Below, piece by piece: positions 1 through 33,144 of a DNA stretch of 33,144 nucleotides. The position numbers were made by a program, and so were the translations under genes. The stretch lies in the IMG/VR virus record IMGVR_UViG_641736163_000007, positions 1-33,144 of that record. One strand, given 5' to 3'. Position 1 is the first letter of the stretch, and each line of letters starts with the position of its first letter. The notes below the pieces were generated by a model. The model saw only the letters and a program-made list of their open reading frames with translations, did not search any database and had not been told where the DNA came from. Source of the DNA: a virus. Taxonomy: Duplodnaviria > Heunggongvirae > Uroviricota > Caudoviricetes.

Positions 1-1164
1 TCACTCATCATCTTCTGTTTCGTACTCCACATCAGAAAGCCTGACCTCAAGCTCTAAGGACGTCGTGAAGCCGCTATTATTCAGAAAATGTGTCACCTTA
101 GTGATGGTCCAGTCCTGCTCGTCTATGACGCGCTTAAAGCCTGACACCTTAACCGGTGTTTCCGTGTAAATATCTGCCCGACCGGTAGCCAGGCTGATGG
201 AGAACTCCGCAACGCCCCGTTGCAGTTTATCCCACTTCGCCTGAGCGGCGCGCATGGCCTGCGCTTTCGTGGCATATACCGTGGTCAGGGCAAAAACATT
301 GTCATCCTCACCGGCCATGTATTCACCTTCGCGCGCTTCCGGTACTTTTGGCGCTTTCTTCTGCGTGACCGGTTTCGCTTTCGGGTGCTCCAGTGCGCGC
401 AGGTGTTTCTCTTTCTTTTTGCGTTTCAGTTTTACCTTCTGCTTTTGTGGCTTCGGGTCTTTGGTGTGTAACCACTTTGCCGTTACGCCGGTGTAGGCTC
501 CACGGTCAGCAATCGCAAAATGATGACGGTCGCCGTCGCTGCGGGCGATGGTAATCTGCGGGATTTTTTTACCGCTGGCCGTCACCCCCTGCCCCGCTTT
601 GAGAAACAACAATTTTCCCATTTTTACCGACACCTCACCGCCGTTGCGTTCAGCAAGGCGGGTCAGGAATTTTGCATCAGACTCCTGCGACTGGTCGATG
701 TGCGGGATTTTAATTCCGGCCAGTGACGGAGCGACACTGGCTTCCAGCCTGTTACGGGAGGCTATCGCCTCAACAATCGCACCGAGCGTGGTGTCATGCC
801 AGGAGCCTTCACGGCGGGAATTGAGCGTCCCGCGAAAATCTGCACTCCGGGCGCGGATAGTGACCACATCCGGCGCGCCCCTGTGTTCAACCTCATCAAC
901 GGTGAATTTCCCTTTGCATACCAGGGCAAAACCTTTCCAGCCGATATACACCGTCAGGACAGCGCCACGAACCGGCAGCCCGACCTGCCCGTCGGCATCG
1001 TTCAGTTCAATATCAAGCTGGTCAGCCTCAAAGCCCCGGTTATCCGTCAGGGTCATGCTCATCAGACGGTCGCTGATATTGCCGGTAATATCCCTGCTGT
1101 CGAGCATCAGCATGTAATCCGGCGTCAGCGTACTGCCTGCATCAAATGTCAGCGCATCCAGCAT
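1..1164 (-). CDS. D: Tail protein D (late tail gene at end of FI-D operon)
   Basis: 387-aa ORF ending at the window edge; size and position after U/T match P2 gpD; Lys-rich central linker; synteny with full P2 tail cluster. Confidence 0.85.
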   Translation of the reverse strand: MLDALTFDAGSTLTPDYMLMLDSRDITGNISDRLMSMTLTDNRGFEADQLDIELNDADGQVGLPVRGAVLTVYIGWKGFALVCKGKFTVDEVEHRGAPDVVTIRARSADFRGTLNSRREGSWHDTTLGAIVEAIASRNRLEASVAPSLAGIKIPHIDQSQESDAKFLTRLAERNGGEVSVKMGKLLFLKAGQGVTASGKKIPQITIARSDGDRHHFAIADRGAYTGVTAKWLHTKDPKPQKQKVKLKRKKKEKHLRALEHPKAKPVTQKKAPKVPEAREGEYMAGEDDNVFALTTVYATKAQAMRAAQAKWDKLQRGVAEFSISLATGRADIYTETPVKVSGFKRVIDEQDWTITKVTHFLNNSGFTTSLELEVRLSDVEYETEDDE

Positions 1165-1643
1165 TATCCCGCCCCCGTCATACCCGTGAATCTGGTCGCC
1201 ATACTGCCAGCCTTACCGATGAGCGATTCCGCCTGTTTACCGATATCGCCATAAAGCGCGGCCAGTGATTCATCAACGCGGGTGAGCGACAGCGTAAAAT
1301 CAATTTTCCGGGGTGTGCCGTCTGCAAAGAAAATACTCCCTGTTTCACTCACCCTGCTGATGACATACATGCCGTAAATCATGCCGGTACCATCCAGCAA
1401 CGGCCACGCCCGGCCTTCCTCTGCCATCAGTCTGAGCGTGGTCATCGTCAGCTTTCCGCCTGTCAGTTCGGGATAAAGCACACCGGCAAGCGTAATGTTT
1501 TCCTCGCCAACACCGAGAAACTGAAAGGCATCCCGTTTACCGATACGGGAATTTGACGGCCAGCGATAATCTGATTCACGCTGCATGGTCTGGTGTGGCA
1601 GCGTCTGGCGCATAAAAACAAACATACCTAACGCGAGCATCAT
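1164..1643 (-). CDS. U: Tail protein U
   Basis: 159-aa ORF immediately downstream of tape measure gene, stop/start overlap with D; size matches P2 gpU. Confidence 0.85.
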   Translation of the reverse strand: MMLALGMFVFMRQTLPHQTMQRESDYRWPSNSRIGKRDAFQFLGVGEENITLAGVLYPELTGGKLTMTTLRLMAEEGRAWPLLDGTGMIYGMYVISRVSETGSIFFADGTPRKIDFTLSLTRVDESLAALYGDIGKQAESLIGKAGSMATRFTGMTGAG

Positions 1644-1657
1644 TTTTCCTCACCTCC

Positions 1658-4105
1658 TTAACCGTCATGCATCATGCTGGCACGGGCGCGCGCACGTTTA
1701 TCCCGCTCGTATTTTTCGAGCGCATCCTGTAACTGGCGGTCAAGCTGTGTCCCCGGCGCAGTACCACCCGTAAGGCTGATGTGATATTCGTTTTTACTCT
1801 GGTCTACATAAGAGCGACCAGCCGGTGCCGTGACCGGCTGATAAGCCTGATAGCCTGCATAAGAGCTGGTCGCCGGAATATAACCACTGCTGCCATACGT
1901 GGCGGCTTGAGTTCTGGCGGCGGTCTGGTCAAGTGTGTCTGACTCTTTGTTGATGACACCGAGTTTTTCCAGTACCCAGTCAATACCACTGCGCAGTTTG
2001 TTGAACGCATTAAGCGGCAGCATCAGCGCGTCAGCCAGTGCCTGCCCGAACATGACGCCCGTGTCACGGCAACGGTTCAGGGTGTCCTGGGTGGCTTTGA
2101 CCGGGGCAATCAGGTTTTTAAACCACTGCCACGCGGCCTGTAACTTTTCACCCAGCCAGTCAAACACCGGTTTAAGTGGCGTGAACAATTCCCCCACCGG
2201 CGCAAATGCCGCTTTCAGCCCTTCAACCACACCGCCAAAGAATGCGCTGACAGGCTCCCAGTATTTACGGATAAGCAACGCCCCGGCGACAATGGCGGCC
2301 ACCACAGCCACAACCGGCCAGCTAATCGCCCCGATGGCCGTCATAACGGCACTGCCAACCGTCGTGAAGATTGCCCCCATTGCGCCTGCTGCCGCGATGA
2401 TGGCATTGATGCCGGTGATAACCGGCCAGGCTACGAGGCCAATGGCACCAATGATGCCAGTCAGCGCCAGTGCAACACCGGCAATAATGCCGATGGTTGA
2501 CGCCAGTGATTTATTTTTCTGGATCCAGCCGTCGAGTTTTAACACATACTTTGTGGCCGTCTGCGTGAGCTTACGCAGTGCGCCTTCCTGCTGGTCAAAC
2601 AGGTCAGTCCCCACCGCCTCATAAGCGGACTGAAACTCCTTAAAGTCACCGCCGAGGTTGTCCTGCATGATATTTACCAGCTCTGCGGTCTTTCCGTCTG
2701 AGGCTTTAAACGCAGCGGTCAGTTTGTCCAGCTTTCCGGTTGAGGCGGCAGTCATCAGCACAGCGGCGGCTGAGCTGGCCTCCTCCCCGAAAATGGTTTT
2801 CATGTATTCAGCCTGCTGGGCAGTACCGAGCCGGTTTTTCTCAAAACTGGCCTGCATTTCTTTCAGAATGGTAAATACTGGCCGGGTGTTTCCCTTGCTG
2901 TCTGAGGTTTTCACACCAAGCTCTTTGAGTGCATCCCATGCTTTTCCCGTCGGTGCCTGCAGGCGGCTTAACACGGCACGGCTTCCCGTCCCCGCCATTG
3001 AACCGGTAATTTTTGCATCATGCAGTGCCCCGACCATTGCGGCGGTTTCTTCAATGCTGACACCGGCATTTTTTGCCACAGGTGCGGCATAGGTCAGCGC
3101 ATCGCTCATACCGTCAAAATCGGCGGCGGTTTTGTTCATCGTCATGGAGAGAACATCCCCGATATGAGCGACCTTATCGTTTGAAAGCTGAAAGGCGGAT
3201 TTCATCCCCATCAGCAGGGCGGCGTTTTCTTCCATCGTGCGACGGTTCGCCAGCGCCATATTCAGCGTGACCGGCGTTGCCGCCTGAATGGCATCAACAT
3301 CCCCACCGGCTTTCGCAATAATAATCTGCGCACCGGCTGCATCATCTGCCGAGGCTGCGGTATTATCGCCGAGCTGGCGCGCCTGTTTGCGTAGTGCGGC
3401 CATTTCGGTGGAGTCTTTTGCCACTCCGAGCACAGCCTGTAATTCTGAGTTTTTCTGCGCAAACTCATAACCGGGCATCAGCAGCTTAACTCCGGCCATC
3501 GTTCCCGCAGCAGCAATCCCCACACCGGCAGCGCCCACTGAGGCCATATTTCCGGCCAGTTCCTTTCCTGCCTGATAACGCTGTTTGACTGCGTTAAGTT
3601 TTGCCTGTTGTGCACTGACACGCGCCAGCGCGTCACGCTGACGGTTAAGCTGTGCGGTGGTTTCACTGATACGGTTTTTCAGTCCCTGCTCATCATGTGC
3701 AAGATTGCGGGTATTAATTCCCACAACGGCCAGTTCCCGCTGCTGGCGTTTAACGGAATCCGTCAGGCGGTTATATTTCGCCTGTAAGTCCTCCGCCGCA
3801 CGCTTTGCGGATTCCAGCACTTTCGCCTGAGCACGGGTCGGTCGTTCGGTATTTTTAAACTGTGTGGCAAGGGCTTCGGCTTCCTGCCGCGCCTTTTCAA
3901 GTGCATGACCAGTCACGGCAAGCTGTGCACTGGTCTTGCGAAATCCCTCAATACGGGATGCGTGACCGTTCAGCTCGCGCAGTGATTTTTGTGTTTCCCG
4001 GATATCCCCCGACAGCGACTTGCTCGCTGTGCGGATGGATTTAAACGGGCGGGATGCCTGGTCAACAGCCCTGAGCAATACCTGTAATTTTACATTGTTA
4101 CTCAT
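1658..4105 (-). CDS. T: Tail tape measure protein
   Basis: 815-aa ORF, coiled-coil-rich N-terminal half, long Ala/Gly/Ile-rich hydrophobic segment mid-protein, located after the E/E' chaperone pair; size matches P2 gpT. Confidence 0.9.
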   Translation of the reverse strand: MSNNVKLQVLLRAVDQASRPFKSIRTASKSLSGDIRETQKSLRELNGHASRIEGFRKTSAQLAVTGHALEKARQEAEALATQFKNTERPTRAQAKVLESAKRAAEDLQAKYNRLTDSVKRQQRELAVVGINTRNLAHDEQGLKNRISETTAQLNRQRDALARVSAQQAKLNAVKQRYQAGKELAGNMASVGAAGVGIAAAGTMAGVKLLMPGYEFAQKNSELQAVLGVAKDSTEMAALRKQARQLGDNTAASADDAAGAQIIIAKAGGDVDAIQAATPVTLNMALANRRTMEENAALLMGMKSAFQLSNDKVAHIGDVLSMTMNKTAADFDGMSDALTYAAPVAKNAGVSIEETAAMVGALHDAKITGSMAGTGSRAVLSRLQAPTGKAWDALKELGVKTSDSKGNTRPVFTILKEMQASFEKNRLGTAQQAEYMKTIFGEEASSAAAVLMTAASTGKLDKLTAAFKASDGKTAELVNIMQDNLGGDFKEFQSAYEAVGTDLFDQQEGALRKLTQTATKYVLKLDGWIQKNKSLASTIGIIAGVALALTGIIGAIGLVAWPVITGINAIIAAAGAMGAIFTTVGSAVMTAIGAISWPVVAVVAAIVAGALLIRKYWEPVSAFFGGVVEGLKAAFAPVGELFTPLKPVFDWLGEKLQAAWQWFKNLIAPVKATQDTLNRCRDTGVMFGQALADALMLPLNAFNKLRSGIDWVLEKLGVINKESDTLDQTAARTQAATYGSSGYIPATSSYAGYQAYQPVTAPAGRSYVDQSKNEYHISLTGGTAPGTQLDRQLQDALEKYERDKRARARASMMHDG

Positions 4106-4525
4106 TCGTGTTTCCGCTTCGCCGGAGCGCCTTTTCGCGCCATGTGATGAGTTCGGTCAGGCTCATGGGATACAGTTCTGATGGCGGCCAGTGAAATATC
4201 ACTGCAACATCCGCCATCAGGTCATCGACCGAGAGATTTTTCGGAAACGTCACTGCACCGAGTTCGGCGACAAAAAACCGACCACCTTACCTGCCAGCGC
4301 CACAAGGTCAGGCAGTTCCAGCGCGGCGACTTCCTGCTCAGTCAGCATCGGTGCGGTCATGCGCGGCAGCACCTTAATCAGTGCATCGACTTCGGAGTTT
4401 GCGACCGCAGCCAGACTGACACCGCGCAGCGTCCCCGCACTGGGTTTCATCAGCGTGACCTGTTCGATAACCTGCTCACCACGCTTGACCGGATTGTCCA
4501 GGGTAATCACATTTTCTTTGTTCAT
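4098..4525 (-). CDS. E+E': Tail assembly chaperone E+E' produced by programmed -1 ribosomal frameshift
   Basis: After a -1 shift at GGTTTTTTG (plus coords 4271-4279) the reading frame stays open to a TAA at 4098-4100, overlapping the T start; classic tape-measure chaperone arrangement. Confidence 0.7.
4250..4525 (-). CDS. E: Tail assembly chaperone E
   Basis: 91-aa ORF between tube gene FII and tape measure T; contains slippery GGTTTTTTG near its 3' end. Confidence 0.85.
   Translation of the reverse strand: MNKENVITLDNPVKRGEQVIEQVTLMKPSAGTLRGVSLAAVANSEVDALIKVLPRMTAPMLTEQEVAALELPDLVALAGKVVGFLSPNSVQ
4271..4279 (-). other. Slippery heptamer for E/E' -1 frameshift (GGTTTTTTG on coding strand)
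   Basis: Read directly: complement of caaaaaacc; located 7 codons before E stop. Confidence 0.7.
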
Positions 4526-4581
4526 GGTTTTCTCACTTCTGAATCGGTGTTAACCGGTCAGCCGGGCTGACCGGATGAAAA

Positions 4582-5100
4582 TCACAGGCCGATATTGCGG
4601 CGGTGTTGCTCCAGCCGGTCGACGCCGTTCACCTTCTCAATCATGTTGATGGTGTCAATTTCGACCAGCTCCTTACCGTCCATCGTCAGCCGGAAATAGG
4701 TGCAGACCACGGAGATTTTCGACTCGGTGTCTTCTCCCTGTTTACCCTCGCCGGTGTCGATTTCTTTCTGACGGCCACGCATGACCACCTCGACGGCCAC
4801 CGTTTCGCCGGTATCGTCACGCTGGTAAGAGCCTGCAAAACGAATCGGCACGGCATCCACACCGGTTGCGGCGTAAAGCTCCCAGATAACCGAATCCGGG
4901 AAGCCCCCGAGCGACCACTCCATTGACAGCGCATCGTCATCAAGGCCGAGGTCTACCGGTGCGCTTCCGTTCATCCCCGCACCGCGATAGTTTTCGAATT
5001 TACGGGTCAGTTTTGGCAGCGTGACGGACTTTGCAACGCCCTGATAGCTGTAGCCGTTCAGAAAGACGTTCATTAACTTGAGTTTGCGCGGCATTGCCAT
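4582..5100 (-). CDS. FII: Tail tube protein
   Basis: 172-aa ORF directly after sheath gene; size and order match P2 gpFII. Confidence 0.9.
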   Translation of the reverse strand: MAMPRKLKLMNVFLNGYSYQGVAKSVTLPKLTRKFENYRGAGMNGSAPVDLGLDDDALSMEWSLGGFPDSVIWELYAATGVDAVPIRFAGSYQRDDTGETVAVEVVMRGRQKEIDTGEGKQGEDTESKISVVCTYFRLTMDGKELVEIDTINMIEKVNGVDRLEQHRRNIGL

Positions 5101-5112
5101 CGGTCAGGCTCC

Positions 5113-6303
5113 TTAATTGCTGTTAACCGAGGTAACCAGACTTGCCAGGTATCTGGAAGTAATACGCTGGCGCAGGGTCAGGTTTTCGAGAGGAGGCACC
5201 GGGGTATAGTCGTAGTCGATATACAGTTTTCCGGCCTTGAGGGTTTCCGCATCATTGGCTTCTTCACTGAACCAGCATGTGCCATCCACGATATAACCGT
5301 TGTTTTTCAGTTCGCGGAATTTGGCATTAATGCCATCAATGATGTCGCGAATCAGCGTTGCGGTAATTGGCTTATCAATAGCCCACATGTGCGCCTCGGC
5401 CATCGTGTCGGCCAGTACCTGCGCGGTGCGGGTGTAGCTTTCAAAGAGGAACAGCGGGTCATCAGAGCAGGTACGGTTACCCCAGAAGCGGAAGCCGTCG
5501 CGGCGAATCAGCGTAGTGATGCCTGACTCATTAAGCAGGTCAGCATCAGTGCCGGACTTCTGCAAATCCCAGAATACAGAGGCGCTGATGCCGGTAACAC
5601 CGTTCACCCCGACATTGGACAACGTTTTATGCCAGCCCTGCTCCTGGTCGATTTTGGCACGCAGCCCCAGCGCACGGGCGGTGGCATACGCGGTGGCAGT
5701 GGTACTGGTAACCGTATCCCATGCGAGGAAATCCGGCCAGATGACCATCAGCTCACGCTGGCTGAAATTCTGACGGTAGGCTTTTGCCTCGGAAATGGTT
5801 TTACAGCCCCATGCGCTGATATACCCGAATGCATTCAGTTCCTGGCATACCGATGCCAGTGCGACGGCAACCTCTTTGGTGTCCAGTCCCGGTACGCCGA
5901 GAATGCGTGGTTTAACGCCGGTAACCGACTCCGCCCCCATCAGGGCTTTCAGCCCGGTGTACTGACCGTTTTCGTCGGTGGTGCCGATAATATTGGAAAC
6001 GGTCTGCGCGAGTTTCGTTTCTTCGTCGTCGCCGGTGCCGTCTTCCACGCGTACGACAACGGTGACCGGTTTTGACTGGTCAGCGATGGCCTGCAACGAC
6101 GCCGCCAGCGTACCTTTTTTACCGGCCTTTGCAATTGCGCTCTGCACATTGGTAATCAGCACCGGTTTATTGAGGGGGAATGTTTCCGCATCCGCATCGC
6201 TGGCCGTGCAGACCATGCCGACAATGGCCGTGGATACGGTGGAAATGACGCGGGTGCCCTCGTTAATCTCCAGCACCTGCACTCCGTGATGATAGTCACT
6301 CAT
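5113..6303 (-). CDS. FI: Contractile tail sheath protein
   Basis: 396-aa ORF heading the FI-FII-E-T-U-D cluster; size matches P2 gpFI. Confidence 0.9.
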   Translation of the reverse strand: MSDYHHGVQVLEINEGTRVISTVSTAIVGMVCTASDADAETFPLNKPVLITNVQSAIAKAGKKGTLAASLQAIADQSKPVTVVVRVEDGTGDDEETKLAQTVSNIIGTTDENGQYTGLKALMGAESVTGVKPRILGVPGLDTKEVAVALASVCQELNAFGYISAWGCKTISEAKAYRQNFSQRELMVIWPDFLAWDTVTSTTATAYATARALGLRAKIDQEQGWHKTLSNVGVNGVTGISASVFWDLQKSGTDADLLNESGITTLIRRDGFRFWGNRTCSDDPLFLFESYTRTAQVLADTMAEAHMWAIDKPITATLIRDIIDGINAKFRELKNNGYIVDGTCWFSEEANDAETLKAGKLYIDYDYTPVPPLENLTLRQRITSRYLASLVTSVNSN

Positions 6304-6387: not shown

Positions 6388-6426
6388 GAAACAACAGATA
6401 AAGAAAAGGCGGGCAATCAACCCGCC
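6388..6426 (-). terminator. Putative rho-independent terminator for the cargo transcript
   Basis: GGCGGG-caatcaa-CCCGCC hairpin (6408-6426) followed on the minus strand by TTTTCTTTATCTGTTGTTTC. Confidence 0.45.
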
Positions 6427-7888: not shown

Positions 7889-8056
<168 letters not shown>

Positions 8057-26218: not shown

Positions 26219-26270
26219 TTCAATGATAATTCCTTTTATTTTAAATAAAATCATGTTCGACCGATGATAC

Positions 26271-26276: not shown

Positions 26277-26298
26277 AACAATCAGTTTAGTATTGTTC

Positions 26299-28572
26299 TT
26301 ACGGGCAAGTAAATCCCGGCCACTCATCAGCGACCGGATACATGAATTTTTTCCCGTCATAATTTACGGTCGCGCCACGAGCCAGCGCCTCAAGCTCCCA
26401 TCGCTGCGGCCTGATACCGTTCTGAGCAAGGTCAACGCGGATACGGGTAATTTGCATTCGTTCCGACCGGGTCAGTCTGGCCGATGGTGCAATTTCATGC
26501 GGTTTTAACGGGCTTCCGTTTCTTTGCTGACGATTTGGCGTTCTCAGCCCGTGTTTTAATGCGCCCCTGAGCGCCTTCACGACCTCCGGGTCATTCCATT
26601 CGATAACACCATCATCAACCAGATTAAGCACTGCTACGGCGTGCTCAGAAGGTGTGGGAACCGGTAACGAAGTATCACCACCGGTGAGCTTTCCACAGTT
26701 ATTGACAGGACTCCGAGGCGCGGCGATGCCGCTTTTTAAAGTCAAAGGCTCAACGACAGGAACTTTCGGCACAATGCGCCAGTCCGTGGTTCTGGTGATA
26801 TGAATATGACGCGCGCCGAGATGCGGCGCGTAAATGCCGACCACTCTCTCGACTTCTTCCTCGTACTCGTTAACGTCATCCGACGGACTACGGGCGACCC
26901 TGACAGTCTGACAATCGCGCGGGACATTTGCCCCACCCTGCGCGCTGATATACAGCGCAAAATCGCCACTGTCTGCGGCAGCGCGTGCAGCCTCGACGCG
27001 TTCGTCAAACTCATCAGCAATGCTGACGCCGCGAGGTAATTTGCGTAGTTCACGGTAAGCCCCCATTGTCGGCAGGCCAACAGTTTTAAATTGCGGAATA
27101 CGCCACGTTGACGCCCATGCGGTAACAGCCGCGGCAGTGTCTTTCAGCGGCCTGCCGGTATCGTTATCGAGCTGACCATCCAGTGCATAGCCGTCGATGT
27201 TTTTTGAAATGTATTTCGCGATATATCCCGCAGCACCGCCCCGGTTAAGGTGTTTTGCCTGAAAACGGTTTCGCGCGGCTCCTCTTTCGTCGCCATCCTC
27301 TTTGAGCGCATAGCGACGCATGATTTCGATAATCTGGTTACGCTGGCGTGGATGACAAAAAAGCATCATATGCCAGTGCGGCGTTCCGTCGTGGTGTGGC
27401 TCGACGACACGCAAACCGTAGACCTGTAAATCATTATCTTTGAATGCCGTGCGCATCAGGCTCCAGATATGGCAGAGATAACGCTGCGCATCCTTTGGAT
27501 TAAATGCCTCATCGTTCCAGCCGTGATTTAGCTGGACGGTTTTACTTTCGCCTTTTCCGACCTGACGTGTCGGGTGATACTTTGACGGCGCGGTCAGCGT
27601 GATAAACATCCCCACATCGCCCTCTGCGGCGGCGTAACGCTCAATACCGGCAATGGTGTTCATCAACTCCATCCGACGAATTTCAGGATTAGAAATACTG
27701 CCCATCACCTTACTGATAAGGTCGATGCGCTCGCCGGTTTCCCTGTTTTCGAGGTCACACGATTTAAGAAATTCCAGATTTGCCTGGCGGCGTGCACGCA
27801 CATCACGAATGGCGTGTTTACTGGCATAAGGAGAACGGTCTTTATTGACCTCCCCTACAGCAATCAGTAACGCCTCATGCCAGCGCATACGCTGGCCTTT
27901 AAGCTGATGAGTCCACCACTCATCGTTAAACAGGCGGGCAATGGCAGAATATGCCTGCCTCGTGGTCATCTGTCCTTTACGGTATTTTTTCCAGTAGAGC
28001 GGGGAAATATTGAAAGCACGTGCAGCGCCAGCAACATGACCATACAGGTGAGCCTGCGCCTCATCCGTAAACAGCGATTCTTTTTCGCCATGCGCATCCA
28101 CCCAGGCATCGCTGAGTTCCTCATACATCATGAAAAGCTGCGATGAGATACGGGCGGCAAACTTTTTCAGCTCCTTGTCATTCATTCCAGGCAGGCGCGC
28201 ATAATGGTCACGCTCTGCCAGAAACAGCAACGACGCGTCGGTGTTCATTTCATGGCGCTGATTCACGCGCTCAATGCGCGGCCATAAACGACGCTGAAAA
28301 GTGGATGTGAGGAAATAAAACCCGTGCACCGGGCTTTTATTGCGCCGGATGTAGTCATAACGTGAAGTAAACAGCGAGCGCAAAAAGTAAGGCAGACGGT
28401 TAATCGTGGATAAAACACCTTGCACCTGACGCATCTCGTCACGTGTAAGGGGTCTTTCGCGCCCGACAGCCTCGCGTGGCGCGTTCCATGCATAAGCACC
28501 GGTAAACGCCTTACCGGTGCCTGCAGCAAATGCTGACGGAGGGACAAAACGCCCGGAGGCTTTAACGGCCAT
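26299..28572 (-). CDS. A: Rolling-circle replication initiator (endonuclease)
   Basis: About 757 aa from the MAVKASG start; the track ORF starts 14 codons upstream; HUH motif (PHWHMMLF) and tandem tyrosines (YIAKYISK). Confidence 0.9.
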   Translation of the reverse strand: MAVKASGRFVPPSAFAAGTGKAFTGAYAWNAPREAVGRERPLTRDEMRQVQGVLSTINRLPYFLRSLFTSRYDYIRRNKSPVHGFYFLTSTFQRRLWPRIERVNQRHEMNTDASLLFLAERDHYARLPGMNDKELKKFAARISSQLFMMYEELSDAWVDAHGEKESLFTDEAQAHLYGHVAGAARAFNISPLYWKKYRKGQMTTRQAYSAIARLFNDEWWTHQLKGQRMRWHEALLIAVGEVNKDRSPYASKHAIRDVRARRQANLEFLKSCDLENRETGERIDLISKVMGSISNPEIRRMELMNTIAGIERYAAAEGDVGMFITLTAPSKYHPTRQVGKGESKTVQLNHGWNDEAFNPKDAQRYLCHIWSLMRTAFKDNDLQVYGLRVVEPHHDGTPHWHMMLFCHPRQRNQIIEIMRRYALKEDGDERGAARNRFQAKHLNRGGAAGYIAKYISKNIDGYALDGQLDNDTGRPLKDTAAAVTAWASTWRIPQFKTVGLPTMGAYRELRKLPRGVSIADEFDERVEAARAAADSGDFALYISAQGGANVPRDCQTVRVARSPSDDVNEYEEEVERVVGIYAPHLGARHIHITRTTDWRIVPKVPVVEPLTLKSGIAAPRSPVNNCGKLTGGDTSLPVPTPSEHAVAVLNLVDDGVIEWNDPEVVKALRGALKHGLRTPNRQQRNGSPLKPHEIAPSARLTRSERMQITRIRVDLAQNGIRPQRWELEALARGATVNYDGKKFMYPVADEWPGFTCP

Positions 28573-28837
28573 ATGAGCCAAAAGCCTCTGAACAACGCCT
28601 GCTGAGTTGCTCAACCTGCGCGTTTAAATCGGCAAAAGACTTTGCGCTTCCGGTCAGAATATCGTGATGCATCAGGCCGGAAACGAGCTGGCTTAATTTC
28701 GGGTAATAACCAACCACCGCCAGCCATTCCTGACCGGCGTTTTTACCGCTTTCCGCTCTCTTTTTCTCGTGGAGAATAAACTGAAAGCTGTCACTGGTAA
28801 CGACATAACGTTCGCCAATTTCAATACGAATACTCAT
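28562..28837 (-). CDS. Hypothetical early protein (P2 orf83-like position)
   Basis: 91-aa ORF overlapping the A start, normal GC. Confidence 0.6.
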   Translation of the reverse strand: MSIRIEIGERYVVTSDSFQFILHEKKRAESGKNAGQEWLAVVGYYPKLSQLVSGLMHHDILTGSAKSFADLNAQVEQLSRRCSEAFGSYGR

Positions 28838-29058
28838 GCCGTTCTCCGGTAATGTTTGTTTTTTGCGTCAAAGACTGACTGACAGGAAACACAACGCGTG
28901 GCTGACGGATAAGCCGCACGACGGGCAGCAGGTATTGGTGCATCACACTCTTCGCAAACCAGCGCAGAAGCACCGCAATGTTTTACCCTTGCCGCGTTAA
29001 TCTGGCGCTCCAGTAATTCAGCCTGTTGTTCCTGAATAAAATCTACGTTGTCCGGCAT
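28834..29058 (-). CDS. TraR/DksA-type C4 zinc-finger protein (P2 orf82-like position)
   Basis: 74 aa with four Cys arranged as two CxxC pairs (CEEC...CVSC). Confidence 0.7.
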   Translation of the reverse strand: MPDNVDFIQEQQAELLERQINAARVKHCGASALVCEECDAPIPAARRAAYPSATRCVSCQSVFDAKNKHYRRTA

Positions 29059-29348
29059 TACCAGTTCCTTTTGTCGTTAAGGTTTTTAAATTCATCAGCG
29101 CAATAGCTGGTGATTTCTGTCGTTAATTTCGTCAGTTCATCCACGGAGGAAATTTGCTTGTGGAATACAGCGCGTTTAACAAGTAAATTGACCACATCAG
29201 ACAGGAGGTTTAATTTATCCGCATAAATGGCTATAGTTGATTCCACCATATCCCCAGTGTTTTTATCGCGTTTAATATCAGCTAGCGACAAATCACCGTT
29301 TTTCATAACTGAAATCTTCAGCCAGTTATTAAGCAATATATTTTTCAT
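29058..29348 (-). CDS. Hypothetical protein (AT-rich)
   Basis: 96-aa ORF with GGAGAGGG upstream of ATG; start overlaps the stop of the next gene. Confidence 0.55.
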   Translation of the reverse strand: MKNILLNNWLKISVMKNGDLSLADIKRDKNTGDMVESTIAIYADKLNLLSDVVNLLVKRAVFHKQISSVDELTKLTTEITSYCADEFKNLNDKRNW

Positions 29349-29390
29349 TCGCTGTATGCCCTCTCCGCAGAATCAATCATTTCCCGGCCA

Positions 29391-29591
29391 TTATCGGTAA
29401 TACAGAAACCTTCTCTTGATTTGGTCACAAGTCCCCATTTCCCCATTGCTATAAATGTTTTTTTCCACACGGCTAGGCCAGGAGCGGAAGACATCGCTTG
29501 AAGGATGTAGTGGAGTCTTGTCATCTAATTTTTTAAGTAATGAAAGTTGATAATCTGTTAAGCGTTTCCTGAACCATTTTGTATTTGTCAT
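29391..29591 (-). CDS. Hypothetical protein (AT-rich)
   Basis: 66 aa from ATG at 29591, preceded by AGGAAAG; the track ORF begins at an upstream TTG. Confidence 0.45.
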   Translation of the reverse strand: MTNTKWFRKRLTDYQLSLLKKLDDKTPLHPSSDVFRSWPSRVEKNIYSNGEMGTCDQIKRRFLYYR

Positions 29592-29605
29592 TTCCAACTT
29601 TCCTG

Positions 29606-29818
29606 TTATTTATTGAGTCCTAGATTATGGAATTTGGCAGACTCCTGACTGAGCAACTCGACTATCTCCACGCGGGATAACTCCGCCTTTGTGATGTGGC
29701 GAATCATGGCGTCAAGATGAGAAGAGAAGCGCGTTGCTGCGTCAGCCTGTGCTTCGGTTCTGGCCTGTTGCAGCATTAATGCGTATTTACCGCACTGATT
29801 TTCAGAAACTGTATGCAT
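29606..29818 (-). CDS. Hypothetical early protein (P2 orf80-like position)
   Basis: 70-aa ORF directly downstream of B. Confidence 0.55.
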
Positions 29819-29881
29819 GACTTTCTCCAGGCAAAAAGAAGCCCCGCACGATTAAGTGCGTTAAAAACTTTGGTTAATTAC

Positions 29882-30382
29882 TTAATGCAGATATTGCTCT
29901 GGTTTTACCGACGTCAGAATTGTCGGTGCATACTCAAACAGACTGAATAATTCACGTAATGCACGGAATAAAGCATCACGCCAGTAACATGACTCTTCAT
30001 TAATTCGCCAGTATGGCTGGTTAAATTCTTTTTCTGTCAGCCGTGCGTGCATAAATAAAGTGCGACGCTGACTGACTGTTAAAAAACTAATATATGCATA
30101 CTCACTTGCGCCAACCTGACGGCGTTTTGAGAATGCCCCGCGCAATTCATCAATTGCACAAACCAGCCGTTCACGTTCGACGTCGTTCATTTCTTCAAAA
30201 CGCATCGTTGCGTGACGCTGTTTTAACTGCGCATGAAAGCAAACCGTTAGCCGTTCGCGTTCCATCATCTGATTATAATAATCACATGTATCCTGCCAGC
30301 GAGGGACGGCCAGATGCTTACCAATTATCCGGCGCATAGCTGCTGGCTGTTTTTCAACGAGATTAAGCGTCATCACTGTCAT
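29882..30382 (-). CDS. B: Replication protein B
   Basis: 166-aa ORF in the early operon upstream of A; size matches P2 gpB. Confidence 0.8.
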   Translation of the reverse strand: MTVMTLNLVEKQPAAMRRIIGKHLAVPRWQDTCDYYNQMMERERLTVCFHAQLKQRHATMRFEEMNDVERERLVCAIDELRGAFSKRRQVGASEYAYISFLTVSQRRTLFMHARLTEKEFNQPYWRINEESCYWRDALFRALRELFSLFEYAPTILTSVKPEQYLH

Positions 30383-30549
30383 TTCCAGACCCTCCGGCTT
30401 TTCAGAAAGGTCAGAGCCTTCTTTAACGAACTCTGTTTTTTGGTGCGGATAATGATTCCCTTGCGTCCTTTCCCGTGGGTGATGGTGAAGTCAATCGCCC
30501 TAGGGCTTTCGTTACGCAATAACTGAGCAATACAACGAGGTTCCTGCAT
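30379..30549 (-). CDS. Small early protein (P2 orf78-like position)
   Basis: 56 aa from ATG at 30549 preceded by AGGAGGAG; stop overlaps B start. Confidence 0.55.
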   Translation of the reverse strand: MQEPRCIAQLLRNESPRAIDFTITHGKGRKGIIIRTKKQSSLKKALTFLKSRRVWK

Positions 30550-30649
30550 AACTCCTCCTGAAACAGAGCCGGTTTTTAGCCATGTCCGGCACATGGTCTT
30601 GTGGTAAGATCGAATCGCCAAAAACAACCAACCACAAGCGAGGTAATAA

Positions 30650-30844
30650 ATGAATAATCAAAATATTGACGAACTTATAACCACTCTCGAAAAAGCGGTT
30701 GCATTAGCAAATACCCTACCAACTCCAATGGGAGATTTTGAGGACGCTAAAAAAGTGGATGAATTAACTATTCAATTAAGAGAGATCATTCACCCTAAAA
30801 AGCCAGTCCAACTCAAAGGCTTTATTGATATAAATCATTTTTAA
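30650..30844 (+). CDS. Hypothetical small protein (64 aa), opposite orientation to early operon
   Basis: ATG preceded by GAGGTAATAA; AT-rich; upstream TGgTAAGAT -10-like element and a CCATGT-N5-ACATGG palindrome. Confidence 0.45.
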   Translation: MNNQNIDELITTLEKAVALANTLPTPMGDFEDAKKVDELTIQLREIIHPKKPVQLKGFIDINHF

Positions 30845-31286
30845 AATAGCATCTTGCATCCGTATGCTGTTTATACGGATGCGTCATCATGTCAAAAATA
30901 CTTTTCCAGTCATCAAGCCCTATTGACCATTTAATACTATTTATATCGCCTGATTTAGAAATTATCGTTTCACGAAGAGCCTTAGCGAGTTCCATGCGCT
31001 CTTGAACGGTCATACCAACGCATTCATATTTAATGCGCAAAAAAGAGTCATGAAATAAAGATTTCAAATTCAGCCGTAGAATTTCTTCATCACCATCTGA
31101 ACTAATAAAAACAAGTTCATCATTATCCAAAATGATATTTTGTTTTCTCAATTCATCGGCTGATTTATATTCTTTCGTACTATTAGCAAACTCACTATAC
31201 GTAATAGTCAGGCTGTTAGATGGTGATGCATCTTCAAGGTTTCCTCTGATGATAGTCACCGATGTTTTATTTAAATCTTGCCTCAT
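30822..31286 (-). CDS. Hypothetical protein (154 aa), AT-rich insertion downstream of cox
   Basis: ATG preceded by GGAGGAG, 10 nt after the cox stop; acidic; no family recognised. Confidence 0.6.
   Translation of the reverse strand: MRQDLNKTSVTIIRGNLEDASPSNSLTITYSEFANSTKEYKSADELRKQNIILDNDELVFISSDGDEEILRLNLKSLFHDSFLRIKYECVGMTVQERMELAKALRETIISKSGDINSIKWSIGLDDWKSIFDMMTHPYKQHTDARCYFKNDLYQ
30856..30882. terminator. Perfect 10-bp stem hairpin (GCATCCGTAT-N7-ATACGGATGC) at the convergent gene junction
   Basis: Read directly; lies 12 nt after the plus-strand 64-aa ORF stop but inside the 3' end of the 154-aa ORF; no strong T-tract. Confidence 0.3.
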
Positions 31287-31295
31287 GGCTCCTCC

Positions 31296-31652
31296 TTAGG
31301 CCGCGTGGCCATGTCTGGATTTGCTGTAACTTATGCGGTTCTTCCAGTCATGCCATTCTGTCGGAGCTTCATCGACTAGTTGAGCTGCATATTTGTCCCA
31401 CTCACGACGATTAATCCATAACTCAGCGTGACCGCCCGGCTTTAACGGGTCTGTCATATAGAATGCTGGCAGCTTTCCAGCTCGTGCCATTTCAGCCACC
31501 GCACGAGGAGTCTTACCGATGTAAAGAGCAAAACCCTCTTTCGACAGTAAATCTGACGGATCCGCAGCCAACTTAATGGAATCACGCTTGTTTTTTTTAA
31601 GAGCAGAAACTTCTTGTCTTTTCTCGTCACAAATTTCAGATCCGACATTCAT
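31296..31652 (-). CDS. cox: Cox-like excision/transcriptional regulator
   Basis: First gene of the early operon, divergent from C; contains the GKLP..MTDP segment I recall from P2 Cox; 118-aa ORF, true start may differ. Confidence 0.65.
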   Translation of the reverse strand: MNVGSEICDEKRQEVSALKKNKRDSIKLAADPSDLLSKEGFALYIGKTPRAVAEMARAGKLPAFYMTDPLKPGGHAELWINRREWDKYAAQLVDEAPTEWHDWKNRISYSKSRHGHAA

Positions 31653-31680
31653 TTTGCTATCCTCACATTGATGTCAGCGA

Positions 31681-31710
31681 TCTAGAGCGATTTAGAGTCG
31701 TTAGATGCTG
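31681..31710. promoter_or_regulatory. Putative immunity operator: imperfect direct repeats (TAGAGCGAT / TAGAGTCGT / TAGATGCTG) in the cox-C divergent promoter region
   Basis: Three about 10-bp-spaced direct repeats between the cox start (31652) and C start (31756); P2-type repressors bind direct repeats. Confidence 0.4.
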
Positions 31711-31755
31711 ATAAATTATATCAACTATGCAAAAGAATACGAGGTTAGAGAATTT

Positions 31756-32055
31756 ATGTCAACTGACACTAGCGAACGTTTGAAGCTTATCCGTGAGTCT
31801 GAACGTCTGAAAATGAAGGAGGTAGCTGAACTAGCTGGCATCAACTACACCACATATGCAGGTTATGAATCAGGTAAGGCTATGATGTCCCTAGAAAATG
31901 CTAAGAAGTTTTTTAAAGTAGAAAGGTTCAGAAAATACCGTGACTGGTTCATGTTTGATGAGACAGATCCCGCTGCCGGACAAATAGCCCCGGCGCTCGC
32001 ACACATTGGGCAAGACTCAACAACCTTGCACCACTCAGACCAAAAGACTGGCTGA
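31756..32055 (+). CDS. C: Immunity repressor C
   Basis: 99 aa from ATG at 31756 preceded by GAGG; the track ORF starts 17 codons upstream; HTH-like N-terminus; upstream of and co-oriented with int. Confidence 0.8.
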   Translation: MSTDTSERLKLIRESERLKMKEVAELAGINYTTYAGYESGKAMMSLENAKKFFKVERFRKYRDWFMFDETDPAAGQIAPALAHIGQDSTTLHHSDQKTG

Positions 32056-32148
32056 CGATTTATTCAGCATATGTGTGCAGTAAATGTACGAAAGAAAATT
32101 GCATTAATTTTCAAGTAGTAGAAGTAAACAGCGTCATCGGAGGGCTTT

Positions 32149-33144
32149 ATGTCTATTAAAAAGCTCGATGATGGTCGTTATGAAGTGGACGTCAGGCCGC
32201 AGGGTGCAGATGGAAAACGTATCAGGCGGAAATTTAAAACTAAAGGTGAAGCCCAGGCATTCGAGCGTCATGTCCTGGTTAACTACCACAACAAAGAGTG
32301 GTTGGAGAAGCCGGCCGACCGCCGAACTCTTACAGAGTTGTTAGGCAGATGGTGGATATATCACGGAAAATCACATGAGCGTGGAGATATTGAACGGGGG
32401 CGTTTGACGACAATAATTGCCAAATTTGCTGAGATGGGAGTGTCCAGGGCGGACCAGCTAACAAAGAAAACGATAACTGATTATCGCGTTGTAATGATGA
32501 ACGACGGTCTAAAACCAGCCAGCGTAAATCGGCATCTGGCAATAATGAGCGGGATGTTCACCAAGTTAATTGACGCCGGTGAATATCACTCTCACAACCC
32601 GTTCCGTGAGGTGAAGCGGTTACGTGAAGCTGTTACGGAAATGGCTTTTTTGTCCAGTGAAGAGATTACGCGGCTGCTATCCATGCTTGATGGTGATGAA
32701 TTAAATGCGACTCTGGTCTGCCTTTCTACTGGTGGACGCTGGAGTGAAGTGTCTAATTTAAAAGCTGAACACATCATTAACCAAATGGTTACGTTTATGA
32801 AAACCAAAAACGGAAAGCGCAGGACAATTCCCGTTTCGCAGGACTTGATTAAACGGATCAAAACCAAAAATTCTGGCAGGCTTTTTAATGCCAGTTACTA
32901 CAAAGTGCGCAACGCTCTCAGGGAAGTAAAACCCGATTTACCTGACGGACAGGCAGTGCATGTTTTGAGGCATACATTTGCCACACATTTTATAATGAAT
33001 GGAGGTAACATAATCACATTGCAGCGCATCCTGGGTCATTCTAACATTCAGCAAACTATGACCTACGCACACTTTGCACCGGATTTCTTACAAGATGCTG
33101 TGACTCTTAACCCGGTGTCAGGAATGTCCATAATGCGTCCATAA
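32149..33144 (+). CDS. int: Tyrosine integrase
   Basis: 331 aa; C-terminal catalytic signature (HVLRHTFAT ... GHSNIQQTMTYAHF) with conserved R, HxxR and Y; ends at the window edge. Confidence 0.9.
   Translation: MSIKKLDDGRYEVDVRPQGADGKRIRRKFKTKGEAQAFERHVLVNYHNKEWLEKPADRRTLTELLGRWWIYHGKSHERGDIERGRLTTIIAKFAEMGVSRADQLTKKTITDYRVVMMNDGLKPASVNRHLAIMSGMFTKLIDAGEYHSHNPFREVKRLREAVTEMAFLSSEEITRLLSMLDGDELNATLVCLSTGGRWSEVSNLKAEHIINQMVTFMKTKNGKRRTIPVSQDLIKRIKTKNSGRLFNASYYKVRNALREVKPDLPDGQAVHVLRHTFATHFIMNGGNIITLQRILGHSNIQQTMTYAHFAPDFLQDAVTLNPVSGMSIMRP

What the first reader, a model, noticed from the sequence alone, without database searches (positions are those of the whole stretch)
1..33144. Overall architecture: near-complete P2-like prophage with intact accessory loci but no old/tin-type genes recognised
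Every backbone gene from D through int is present in P2 order, and the only structural lesion is the IS in Q. At the positions of the classical P2 defence genes I see no OLD-like ATPase and instead find unrecognised cargo at three sites. This pattern of conserved backbone and variable cargo supports treating the three islands as the biologically novel content.
Basis: partly seen in the sequence, partly recalled or inferred. Interest (0 to 1): 0.4.

Follow-up and report, generated by a model that had tools for sequence, protein, structure and literature searches.

The report
Defective P2-like prophage with orphan cargo
This is an ordinary P2-family prophage of Escherichia albertii, disabled by an insertion sequence in its portal gene, whose known variable slots hold three small gene cassettes of unknown function in place of P2's classical defence genes.

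Summary
The observation mostly holds. The window is 100% identical to Escherichia albertii TW07627 over the 18 kb compared. It runs exactly from the stop codon of gene D to the stop codon of int in a P2-like prophage beside pflA.

- **Backbone:** all essential P2 genes are present, full-length and in P2 order. Most proteins are 91-100% identical to P2.
- **Absent:** fun(Z), tin, old, orf30 and orf91.
- **Swapped modules:** int-C-cox and the tail-fibre tip/chaperone are heterologous.
- **Cargo:** three low-GC cassettes (0.35-0.44 against about 0.56) sit at the Z/fun slot, the tin/old slot and between cox and orf78.
- **Annotation:** no cargo protein matches Pfam, NCBIfam or PADLOC. All are small orphan families already present in public Escherichia genomes.

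The conserved-backbone, variable-hotspot pattern is already published (Nilsson 2004, Rousset 2022, Moura de Sousa 2026). Context gives weak support for defence roles. Cassette 1 homologues lie beside restriction-modification and DUF4238 genes. A cassette 2 homologue is catalogued, untested, at the P2 hotspot. This is a new member of a known kind, of modest interest.

The parts
1..6303 (-). Late tail operon FI-FII-E(E')-T-U-D (D 1-1164, U 1164-1643, T 1658-4105, E 4250-4525, FII 4582-5100, FI 5113-6303)
   Evidence: tblastn to P2 proteins gives full-length alignments at 95-100% identity. One blastn block, 1-6511, is 95.7% identical to P2.
6408..6426 (-). GC-rich hairpin with a T-run, terminator-like, between cassette 1 and the FI promoter region
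   Evidence: Terminator scan: 7-bp stem with 6 GC pairs, followed by TTTTCTTT. It lies in P2-homologous DNA.
6512..8060 (-). Cassette 1 at the Z/fun slot (GC 0.436), replacing fun(Z)
   Evidence: No blastn match to P2. GC. The same 1.85-kb stretch is 99% identical in 52 of 5426 complete E. coli genomes.
6738..7817 (-). Cassette 1 gene: a 359-aa protein with an N-terminal membrane anchor (about residues 10-33) and a beta-rich C-terminal domain weakly resembling FG-GAP/beta-propeller folds
   Evidence: - Matches phrog_15038 (unknown function) at E 8.5e-259. No Pfam, NCBIfam or PADLOC hit.
- 15 homologue clusters.
- AF2 model has pLDDT 65 and pTM 0.67.
- Hydropathy scan.
7886..8032 (-). Remnant of an IS3-family transposase C-terminus, upstream of the cassette 1 gene
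   Evidence: RefSeq annotates this stretch as 'IS3 family transposase, incomplete' in the 99% identical E. coli locus L001.
8146..10541 (-). Tail-fibre assembly gene G (8146-8724) and tail-fibre gene H (8724-10541). G and the C-terminal part of H are a swapped host-range module.
   Evidence: Only residues 1-251 of H align to P2 (90% identity). G is 40% identical over its C-terminal part. Pfam hits are Caudo_TAP for G and Phage_tail_fib, Phage_fiber_2 and Collar for H.
10552..12967 (-). Baseplate genes I, J, W, V
   Evidence: tblastn to P2, 98-99.7% identity, full length.
12968..13031 (.). Empty orf30 slot: a 64-bp S-V junction in place of about 940 bp in P2
   Evidence: blastn blocks break here. 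Sequence read. Several sequenced P2-like phages match the window in only three blocks, which implies they are contiguous across this junction.
13034..19234 (-). S, R, lysC/B/A, K, Y, X, L, M, N, O (tail completion, lysis, head genes)
   Evidence: tblastn to P2, 93-100% identity, all full length.
19408..21180 (+). Terminase large subunit P
   Evidence: 99.8% identical to P2 gpP over 590 aa.
21180..24801 (+). Portal gene Q, interrupted after codon 36 (5' part 21180-21287, 3' part 23869-24801)
   Evidence: tblastn gives a split alignment. Reconstruction without the IS gives an intact 344-aa Q, 341/344 identical to P2.
21288..23868 (-). ISEc12 (IS21 family): istA 22134-23675, istB 21373-22122, TG...CA ends, 6-bp target duplication CTCGAC
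   Evidence: - NCBIfam transpos_IS21 at 3.3e-92 and IS21_help_AAA at 1.8e-80.
- Ends and duplication read.
- 100% identical to copies annotated ISEc12 in E. coli.
24971..24989 (.). cos site (joined cohesive-end sequence)
   Evidence: These 19 nt are shared by the two blastn blocks that match the left and right ends of P2. Sequence read.
25019..26298 (-). Cassette 2 at the tin/old slot (GC 0.345), replacing orf91, tin and old
   Evidence: No blastn match to P2. GC. Full-length match (97.8%) in only 4 complete E. coli genomes.
25117..25977 (-). Cassette 2 gene B: a 286-aa protein with one N-terminal transmembrane helix and an all-alpha remainder; family of unknown function
   Evidence: - phrog_21267 (unknown). 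No Pfam, NCBIfam or PADLOC hit.
- A full HMMER profile search finds 205 clusters at 50% identity; most listed hits are 270-320 aa.
- None of 50 members hits a shared Pfam or PADLOC family.
- The AF2 model is poor, pLDDT 56.
26012..26254 (-). Cassette 2 gene A: a small lipoprotein (68-80 aa precursor, lipobox LLSG-C, mature about 48 aa with two more cysteines)
   Evidence: - Sequence read.
- phrog_32041 at 1.6e-23.
- A homologous lipoprotein precedes the 305-aa homologue in a Salmonella P2-like prophage.
- UniRef names it 'Lipoprotein'.
26299..28572 (-). Replication initiator/nickase A
   Evidence: 97.8% identical to P2 gpA over 756 aa.
28562..30549 (-). Early-operon genes orf83, orf82, orf81, a frameshifted 81-aa ORF (about 29345-29590), orf80, B, orf78
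   Evidence: tblastn at 72-99% identity. Pfam hits are DUF5405 and DUF2732. The frameshift is shown by alignment to E. coli DAX4 and NWU_4 and recurs in four assemblies.
30550..31295 (.). Cassette 3 (GC 0.367), a 746-bp insertion exactly between the cox stop and the orf78 start
   Evidence: About 430 E. coli genomes with related cox-C lose homology at the cox stop. Four sampled relatives have cox followed directly by orf78 or B. One has a different cassette with the same layout.
30822..31286 (-). Cassette 3 gene: a 154-aa soluble orphan protein, in line with the early operon, with AAGGAGGAG directly after the cox stop
   Evidence: Sequence read. Only one 90%-identity cluster in 5.8 billion sequences. 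No Pfam, PHROG, PADLOC or NCBIfam hit.
30650..30844 (+). Cassette 3 gene: a 64-aa ORF convergent with the 154-aa gene (23-nt 3' overlap), with its own GAGG ribosome-binding site
   Evidence: Sequence read. The exact protein is seen on 510 contigs. It is called next to the 154/157-aa gene in every locus that holds that gene.
31296..33144 (.). Heterologous immunity/integration module: cox (31296-31652, -), C repressor (31756-32055, +), int (32149-33144, +)
   Evidence: - Pfam Phage_Cox at 8.6e-29 and HTH_3. The tyrosine recombinase matches.
- Only 35%, 44% and 53% identical to P2.
- Prophages of this type sit next to pflA.

Best explanation
The window is a Peduovirus (P2-like) prophage of Escherichia albertii TW07627, integrated beside pflA.

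Shown:
- Its structural, lysis and replication genes are P2's, about 95-98% identical in DNA.
- Three modules are swapped: the int-C-cox immunity/integration module, the tail-fibre tip with its chaperone, and the accessory cargo.
- An ISEc12 copy has transposed into portal gene Q and a small accessory ORF is frameshifted. The element therefore probably cannot make capsids.

Inferred:
- It is carried as a grounded prophage.
- P2's fun(Z), tin, old, orf91 and orf30 are absent. Foreign low-GC cassettes occupy the Z/fun slot, the gpA-cos slot and a rarer slot between cox and orf78. The most likely route is recombination in the conserved flanks, the cassette exchange described for P2 hotspots.
- Cassette 1 (a membrane-anchored protein with a beta-rich, probably periplasmic, domain) and cassette 2 (a small lipoprotein plus a single-pass, all-alpha membrane protein) are lysogen-expressed envelope proteins. 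They would block or abort infection by other phages.
- Cassette 3 has one gene driven by the early lytic operon, which would act at induction or infection. It could be a counter-defence or takeover function. The small convergent gene may be its regulator or partner.

No function was tested. The confidence of 0.85 applies to the architecture (identity, lesions, cassette positions). The proposed cargo functions are much less certain, at about 0.4.
For: - **Identity of the source:** 100% identical to CH991859.1 over 18 kb. The proteins are exact matches to E. albertii TW07627 entries.
- **P2 backbone:**
- **IS:**. **Frameshift:**
- **Cargo absent from P2, with low GC:**
- **No known defence or Pfam family:**
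- **Hotspots published:**
- **Mosaic distribution:** cassette 1 is in 52 complete E. coli genomes, cassettes 2 and 3 in 4 each, and the sets listed differ.
- **Cassette 1 homologues outside P2:** they lie next to a type II restriction enzyme, methylase and HNH gene (L029); next to DUF4238 and an EcoRII system on a conjugative element (L030); next to a weak DndB hit and YaaC (L031); and in a CP4-like island (L033).
- **Cassette 2 operon:** the lipoprotein plus 1-TM protein pair is conserved at the same slot in a Salmonella prophage. The 305-aa homologue is listed in Rousset Table S5B arrangement #94. A distant homologue lies beside an HEC-01A ATPase.
- **Cassette 3 boundaries and layout:**
- **Prior for defence:** 6 of 8 randomly chosen unknown loci at the P4 hotspot were protective.
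Against: - No cargo protein has a recognisable effector or sensor domain.
- The structure models are moderate (pLDDT 65) or poor (pLDDT 56), and the fold matches are generic.
- The context evidence rests on a handful of loci with no statistics.
- Most distant homologues of the cassette 2 protein are solitary chromosomal genes among housekeeping genes, with no lipoprotein partner called.
- The validated AC1 TIR system works without the cassette 2 family protein, so co-listing in arrangement #94 says nothing about its function.
- In Erwinia-type loci the cassette 1 homologue has a conserved 245-aa upstream neighbour that is missing here. The P2 copy could be an incomplete system.
- P2 hotspots also carry non-defence cargo such as a partition system and cytolethal distending toxin.
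- Promoters were not established.
Confidence: 0.85

Rival explanations
1. The cassettes are lysogenic-conversion or fitness genes unrelated to phage defence. They could be envelope or virulence-associated factors of the enteropathogen E. albertii. They sit in the hotspots only because these are permissive insertion sites.
For: - P2 hotspots are mixed-purpose. About a quarter of loci carry a partition system and about 2% carry cytolethal distending toxin.
- Only about 21% of cargo protein groups at the old/tin hotspot hit DefenseFinder.
- Cassettes 1 and 2 encode envelope proteins with no nuclease, ATPase or other typical defence domain.
- Distant homologues of the cassette 2 protein lie among housekeeping genes.
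Against: - Cassette 1 homologues repeatedly neighbour restriction-modification and DUF4238 genes in unrelated elements.
- Unknown genes at the satellite hotspot had a high experimental hit rate.
- No similarity to any known virulence factor was found.
Confidence: 0.3
2. Cassette 3 is an anti-defence or host-takeover module rather than a defence. The 154-aa gene is translated from the early lytic transcript right after cox and neutralises a host immune system. The convergent 64-aa gene modulates it.
For: - The gene is in line with the early operon, with a strong Shine-Dalgarno sequence directly after the cox stop.
- The site is empty in most relatives. One relative holds a different cassette with the same in-line plus convergent layout.
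- Some P2-like prophages are reported to carry anti-restriction and anti-CRISPR genes.
Against: - No similarity to any known anti-defence protein, and no PHROG, Pfam or PDB match.
- The protein is only mildly acidic (net about -5), so it is not an obvious DNA mimic.
Confidence: 0.25
3. The cargo genes are non-functional leftovers in a decaying, dead prophage.
For: The prophage carries two inactivating lesions. There is an IS3 remnant inside cassette 1. The 245-aa neighbour seen in Erwinia-type loci is missing.
Against: - All cargo ORFs are intact and identical or near-identical across many genomes. The clusters have 208, 16 and 28 members, and the exact 154-aa protein is on 324 contigs.
- The families are conserved down to 43% identity (cassette 1) and about 25% identity (cassette 2) with preserved length.
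- The IS is intact, still has its target duplication, and the Q halves are 99% identical to P2. The inactivation is therefore recent.
Confidence: 0.07

Closest known systems
Bacteriophage P2 (Peduovirus P2, NC_001895) and P2-like coliphages and prophages such as fiAA91-ss, STYP1 and P24A7b
   Same: Same gene order, and 93-100% protein identity for most of the backbone from D to A/B/orf78. Exceptions are orf81 (72%), the C-terminal part of H and G (40%). The cos site is the same, and so are the accessory slots between G and FI and between A and cos.
   Different: - No fun(Z), tin, old, orf91 or orf30.
- int-C-cox is only 35-53% identical (a pflA-site type).
- The tail-fibre tip and chaperone are replaced.
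- Q is interrupted by ISEc12.
P2 defence hotspots as described by Rousset et al. 2022 (PMC9122126) and Moura de Sousa et al. 2026 (PMC13586616)
   Same: Cassette 2 sits at the main gpA-gpQ hotspot and cassette 1 at the tail-gene (Z/fun) hotspot. Cassette 3 lies in the integrase-primase interval, reported as a minor hotspot. This element falls in the reported 19% of P2-like prophages that have only unknown genes at the main locus.
   Different: None of the cargo matches a validated or candidate system in PADLOC 2.0. The precise cox-orf78 insertion point and its 'in-line gene plus convergent small gene' layout are not described in the passages I read.
Arrangement #94 'TIR_2' of Rousset Table S5B, and the AC1 2TM+1TM+TIR system
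   Same: Arrangement #94 (35 loci) lists a 305-aa protein that is 52% identical to the window's 286-aa cassette 2 protein, at the same P2 slot.
   Different: The window has no TIR protein and none of the two small membrane proteins. The cloned, active AC1 system does not contain the 305-aa family member. The family is therefore catalogued but untested, and is probably a separate module.
Prophage superinfection-exclusion membrane proteins and lipoproteins (from memory, not tested here: T4 Imm/Sp, T5 Llp, phi80/N15 Cor, HK97 gp15, lactococcal Sie2009)
   Same: They are small lysogen-carried envelope proteins encoded as morons: a lipoprotein, or a single-pass membrane protein with a periplasmic domain.
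   Different: No sequence or convincing fold similarity was found. The topology is predicted only from hydropathy and charge. This is an analogy for the proposed mode of action, not a family assignment.

Membership tests
P2-like (Peduovirus) prophage | Full set of P2 head, tail, lysis and replication genes in P2 order | tested here: met
   tblastn of P2 proteins finds every essential gene in order, all full length except Q. 209 phage records match, and the best cover 77-83% at 95-97% identity.
P2-like (Peduovirus) prophage | 19-nt cos site between Q and the accessory locus | tested here: met
   Window 24971-24989 matches both ends of the P2 genome.
P2-like (Peduovirus) prophage | C repressor / Cox switch and a tyrosine integrase | tested here: met
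   Pfam Phage_Cox at 8.6e-29 and HTH_3. The integrase matches tyrosine recombinase models. The module is heterologous to P2, at 35-53% identity.
P2-like (Peduovirus) prophage | Late activator ogr and att sites | not testable with these tools
   The window ends at the stop codons of D and int. ogr and both att sites lie outside it.
P2-like (Peduovirus) prophage | Functional, able to form particles | tested here: not met
   Portal gene Q is split by ISEc12. Loss of particle formation is an inference from the sequence, not an induction experiment.
OLD family (P2 old: ABC-type ATPase plus Toprim nuclease) | A protein with an AAA_15/21-type ATPase and a Toprim domain at the gpA-cos slot | tested here: not met
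   No tblastn hit for Old. The slot holds only a 286-aa and a 68-80-aa protein with no Pfam or PADLOC hits. The PADLOC scan of all 47 proteins is negative.
P2 Tin and Fun(Z) | Sequence homologues of tin or fun(Z) | tested here: not met
   No tblastn hit at E 1e-3 or below.
IS21 family insertion sequence (ISEc12) | IstA transposase plus IstB helper ATPase, terminal inverted repeats, target-site duplication | tested here: met
   NCBIfam transpos_IS21 at 3.3e-92 and IS21_help_AAA at 1.8e-80. TG...CA ends, imperfect terminal repeats and a 6-bp CTCGAC duplication. 100% identical to annotated ISEc12 copies.
Known anti-phage defence systems (PADLOC-DB 2.0) | Any cargo protein matching a defence-system model | tested here: not met
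   No hit for any island protein or for 50 members of the cassette 2 family. The only window hits are IstB to the DrmD and mad8 models.
FG-GAP / VCBS repeat proteins (the UniRef name for the cassette 1 protein) | Pfam FG-GAP/VCBS repeat match or a beta-propeller fold | tested here: inconclusive
Bacterial lipoprotein (cassette 2 small gene) | Signal peptide ending in a lipobox L-x-[GA]-C | tested here: met
   FLLSGC in the window and LLVGC in the Salmonella homologue, read directly. The only model support is weak matches to lipoprotein signal regions. Lipidation itself was not tested.

The most novel reading that the evidence does not exclude
At least one of the two envelope cassettes is a new membrane-based anti-phage system with no known defence domain. 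The candidates are the FG-GAP-like anchored protein at the Z/fun slot and the lipoprotein plus 1-TM protein pair at the tin/old slot. The cassette 2 protein belongs to a family of at least 205 clusters at 50% identity that has no Pfam model. In addition, the cox-orf78 junction may be a distinct P2 cargo slot that takes 'early-operon gene plus convergent small gene' cassettes.
Probability: 0.4. Interest if true: 0.55.

Novelty: new member of a known kind. Interest (0 to 1): 0.3.

Why it matters
The architecture adds nothing new. It is a textbook case of P2 hotspot cargo exchange, and of a prophage grounded by an IS while its cargo stays intact.

The value lies in three concrete, cheap-to-test candidates:
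- A roughly 360-aa anchored protein family that recurs beside restriction-modification and DUF4238 genes.
- A widespread family of roughly 285-aa proteins with one transmembrane helix and no Pfam or PADLOC model, here paired with a conserved lipoprotein at the main P2 defence slot.
- A rare two-gene insert wired into the early operon.

If any of these protects against phages, it would add an envelope-level mechanism to a catalogue dominated by cytoplasmic nucleases and NADases.

Tried and rejected
- **Family searches:** Pfam, NCBIfam, PADLOC and PHROGs on all cargo proteins returned only PHROGs of unknown function.
- **Word-indexed homologue searches:** 3 clusters for cassette 2, 15 for cassette 1 and 1 for cassette 3.
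- **Profile search against PDB sequences:** nothing below E 0.4 for the cargo families and the 154-aa protein. The 64-aa ORF matched only a de novo designed helical repeat protein (E 5e-4), which I discount.
  - Cassette 2 gives generic helical bundles from a low-confidence model, which I disregard.
- **AFDB50 library:** not available.
- **The search for related loci:** I sampled contexts protein by protein instead.
- **Link to the validated AC1 TIR system:** rejected. The cloned system lacks the cassette 2 family protein.
- **PADLOC DrmD and mad8 hits:** traced to the IS helper IstB, so they are false leads.
- **Rfam and tRNA scans:** empty.
- **HEPN-like RNase idea for the cassette 2 protein:** it has a conserved R-N, but no conserved histidine follows. 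Not pursued.
- **Ogr-type TGT-N12-ACA sites:** two matches against about 8 expected by chance, so not informative.

Full report
**What the window is.**
- The 33,144-bp window runs exactly from the stop codon of gene D (position 1) to the stop codon of int (33144).
- megablast finds 209 phage records. The best are P2-like phages of Escherichia, Salmonella and Yersinia, covering 77-83% of the first 25 kb at 95-97% identity.
- The three main cargo proteins are exact matches to entries from Escherichia albertii TW07627 (= NBRC 107761).
- The window is 100% identical to CH991859.1 over the 18,028 nt that I could overlay.
- The prophage lies next to a radical-SAM gene. In E. coli prophages of the same type that neighbour is annotated pflA.

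**Backbone check.** I translated all 42 annotated P2 proteins (NC_001895) and ran tblastn against the window.
- D, U, T, E, FII, FI, I, J, W, V, S, R, lysC/B/A, K, Y, X, L, M, N, O, P, A, orf83, orf82, orf80, B and orf78 are full length, in P2 order and 91-100% identical.
- orf81 is 72% identical.
- H matches only over its first 251 residues, and G is 40% identical. This is a swapped tail-fibre tip and chaperone. Pfam confirms both are fibre and chaperone proteins.
- cox, C and int are 35%, 44% and 53% identical, so the immunity/integration module is heterologous.
- fun(Z), orf30, orf91, tin and old give no hit.
- ogr and the att sites are outside the window.
- The orf30 slot is reduced to a 64-bp S-V junction. 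Several sequenced P2-like phages match the window in only three blocks, which implies they are contiguous across it. I do not count it as a lesion.

**Lesions.**
- *IS in Q.* Q is split at codon 36 by a 2,581-bp element at 21288-23868.
  - It has TG...CA ends, imperfect terminal repeats and a 6-bp duplication, CTCGAC.
  - It encodes an intact IstA (513 aa) and IstB (249 aa).
  - It is 100% identical to copies annotated ISEc12 in E. coli.
  - Deleting it with one duplication copy restores a 344-aa Q that is 341/344 identical to P2 gpQ. The insertion is therefore clean and probably recent.
  - The same interrupted prophage is present in at least two further assemblies (L013, L014).
The ORF is intact in E. 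coli DAX4 and NWU_4. The A7 allele is present in four assemblies, so a sequencing error is unlikely.

**The three islands.** blastn against P2 leaves three unmatched, low-GC stretches:

| Island | Coordinates | GC | Slot | Complete E. coli genomes with it |
|---|---|---|---|---|
| 2 | 25019-26298 | 0.345 | tin/old | 4 at 97.8% |
| 3 | 30550-31295 | 0.367 | cox-orf78 | 4 at 99.5-99.9% |

- The backbone GC is 0.55-0.575.
- None of the islands is found by megablast in 50,697 phage records.
- The genomes listed as carrying each cassette differ, as expected for independent cassette exchange.
- No cargo protein hits Pfam, NCBIfam or PADLOC.
- A PADLOC scan of all 47 predicted proteins returns only IstB cross-matching the DrmD and mad8 models.
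- Rfam and tRNA scans are empty.

**Island 1 (Z/fun slot).**
- It holds one 359-aa gene (6738-7817, minus strand), an upstream remnant of an IS3 transposase and a terminator-like hairpin downstream.
- The protein has a lysine-rich N-terminus followed by one hydrophobic helix (about residues 10-33). By the positive-inside rule this would place the rest in the periplasm. That is inference.
- The family is small: 15 clusters, down to 43% identity.
- An AF2 model from 14 sequences is moderate, with pLDDT 65 and pTM 0.67. It is beta-rich.
- Context is more informative. Outside P2, homologues sit in these neighbourhoods:
  - next to a type II restriction enzyme (PADLOC 5e-111), a cytosine methylase and an HNH protein (L029);
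  - on a conjugative element next to a DUF4238 protein and an EcoRII restriction-modification pair (L030). A DUF4238 protein was validated as anti-T7 by Rousset et al.;
  - near a weak DndB hit and YaaC (L031);
  - in the variable part of a CP4-like island (L033).
- This is guilt by association on a few loci, not a statistic.
- In the Erwinia-type loci a conserved 245-aa gene lies immediately upstream. It is absent here.

**Island 2 (tin/old slot).**
- It holds two co-directional genes transcribed from the A side towards cos: a small lipoprotein (lipobox FLLSG-C, two further cysteines) and a 286-aa protein.
- The 286-aa protein has one N-terminal transmembrane helix followed by a positively charged stretch, so the C-terminal domain is predicted to be cytoplasmic.
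- The word-indexed search found only 3 clusters. A full HMMER profile search of 1.84 billion representatives found 205 clusters at E 1e-3 or below, and most listed hits are 270-320 aa.
- None of 50 members scanned hits a shared Pfam or PADLOC family. The family is real, fairly broad and undescribed.
- In a Salmonella P2-like prophage, the 305-aa homologue (52% identity) sits at the same slot, after a homologous lipoprotein. The two-gene operon is therefore conserved.
- Rousset et al. list that 305-aa protein in Table S5B arrangement #94 ('TIR_2', 35 loci), together with two small membrane proteins and a TIR protein. The cloned, active AC1 system (2TM+1TM+TIR) does not include it. It is catalogued but untested, and probably a separate module.
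- Distant homologues are mostly solitary chromosomal genes (Serratia, Acinetobacter and a metagenome contig). One in Ewingella lies beside an HEC-01A-type ATPase.
- The AF2 model is poor, at pLDDT 56, and its fold matches are generic helical bundles.

**Island 3 (cox-orf78).**
- Homology of about 430 E. coli genomes with related cox-C stops exactly at the cox stop codon.
- In four sampled relatives, cox is followed directly by orf78 or B.
- One relative (L017) carries a different, unrelated cassette with the same layout: a 198-aa in-line gene and a 68-aa convergent gene.
- In the window, the 154-aa gene starts 9 nt after the cox stop, behind AAGGAGGAG. It should therefore be translated from the early lytic transcript.
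- The 64-aa gene is convergent, has its own GAGG site and overlaps the other gene's 3' end by 23 nt.
- The 154-aa protein has a single 90%-identity cluster in 5.8 billion sequences, and no family or PDB match.
- It is not rare: the exact protein is on 324 contigs and its partner on 510.
- Its wiring suggests a function at infection or induction, possibly counter-defence. This is inference only.

**Comparison with what is known.**
- Variability of the Z region was deposited in 2004 (AJ512683).
- The gpA-gpQ hotspot was mined systematically by Rousset et al. 2022: 1,650 arrangements in 18,150 loci.
- Egorov et al. rediscovered both hotspots in about 1,000 P2-like phages.
- Moura de Sousa et al. 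2026 describe additional minor hotspots, including the tail genes (16%) and the integrase-primase interval (8%). They also report that 19% of P2-like prophages carry only unknown genes at the main locus.
- The finding is therefore an ordinary instance of a known pattern.

**What remains open.** The open question is what the three orphan cassettes do.
- I put about 0.4 on at least one envelope cassette being a new anti-phage module.
- I put about 0.3 on the cargo being unrelated to defence.
- I put about 0.25 on cassette 3 being an anti-defence or takeover function.

**Verdict.**
- Novelty: a new member of a known kind.
- Interest: 0.3.

Noticed in passing
window 29465-29471 (minus-strand poly-A run), ORF about 29345-29590: A +1 A (A7 against A6) frameshifts an 81-aa accessory ORF (phrog_11056, weak winged-helix/MotA-like hits). 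The ORF is intact in E. coli DAX4 and NWU_4. The same A7 allele is in four assemblies carrying this prophage.
   Followed up: yes
window 21288-23868: The IS in Q is ISEc12 (IS21 family). It is 100% identical to E. coli copies, and 1,366 of 5,426 complete E. coli genomes have a match covering at least 80% of it. It carries a 6-bp CTCGAC duplication. The same interrupted prophage occurs in at least two further assemblies.
   Followed up: yes
window 7886-8032 (minus strand): A C-terminal remnant of an IS3-family transposase lies just upstream of the cassette 1 gene. It may mark how the cassette arrived, or may supply its promoter.
   Followed up: partly
window 8146-9660: The C-terminal part of tail fibre H and all of chaperone G are unrelated or only 40% identical to P2, with lower GC (0.48). 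This is a host-range cassette swap adjacent to the Z/fun slot.
   Followed up: partly
L017 1661-2466 (E. coli 2013C-4830): At the same cox-orf78 junction, a relative carries an unrelated cassette with the same layout: a 198-aa in-line gene plus a 68-aa convergent gene, then an IS3. This suggests a recurrent cassette format at this minor slot.
   Followed up: partly
L033 and L035, 6086-6823: The 82%-identical homologue of the cassette 1 protein is preceded by the same 245-aa unknown gene in two different genomic contexts. That gene is absent from the P2 copies. It has no PADLOC hit.
   Followed up: partly
window 21373-22122 (IstB): PADLOC model PDLC02630 ('DrmD') matches the IS21 helper ATPase IstB at E 8.9e-24, and mad8 matches at 4.9e-07. 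This is a potential source of false defence calls in IS-rich regions.
   Followed up: yes
window 12968-13031: The orf30 slot is empty. The 64-bp S-V junction holds a GC-rich hairpin (GCCGCCGG...CCGGCGGC) without a T-run, and no obvious TGT-N12-ACA Ogr site.
   Followed up: partly
window 6382-6549 (plus strand): A 55-aa ORF annotated as hypothetical in RefSeq, and seen on about 1,000 contigs, overlaps the conserved terminator hairpin upstream of the FI promoter region. It is probably not a gene.
   Followed up: no
window 26255-26300 (minus strand): A perfect TATAAT lies between the stop of gene A and the lipoprotein gene. The consensus scan did not report it. It may give cassette 2 its own promoter.
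   Followed up: no
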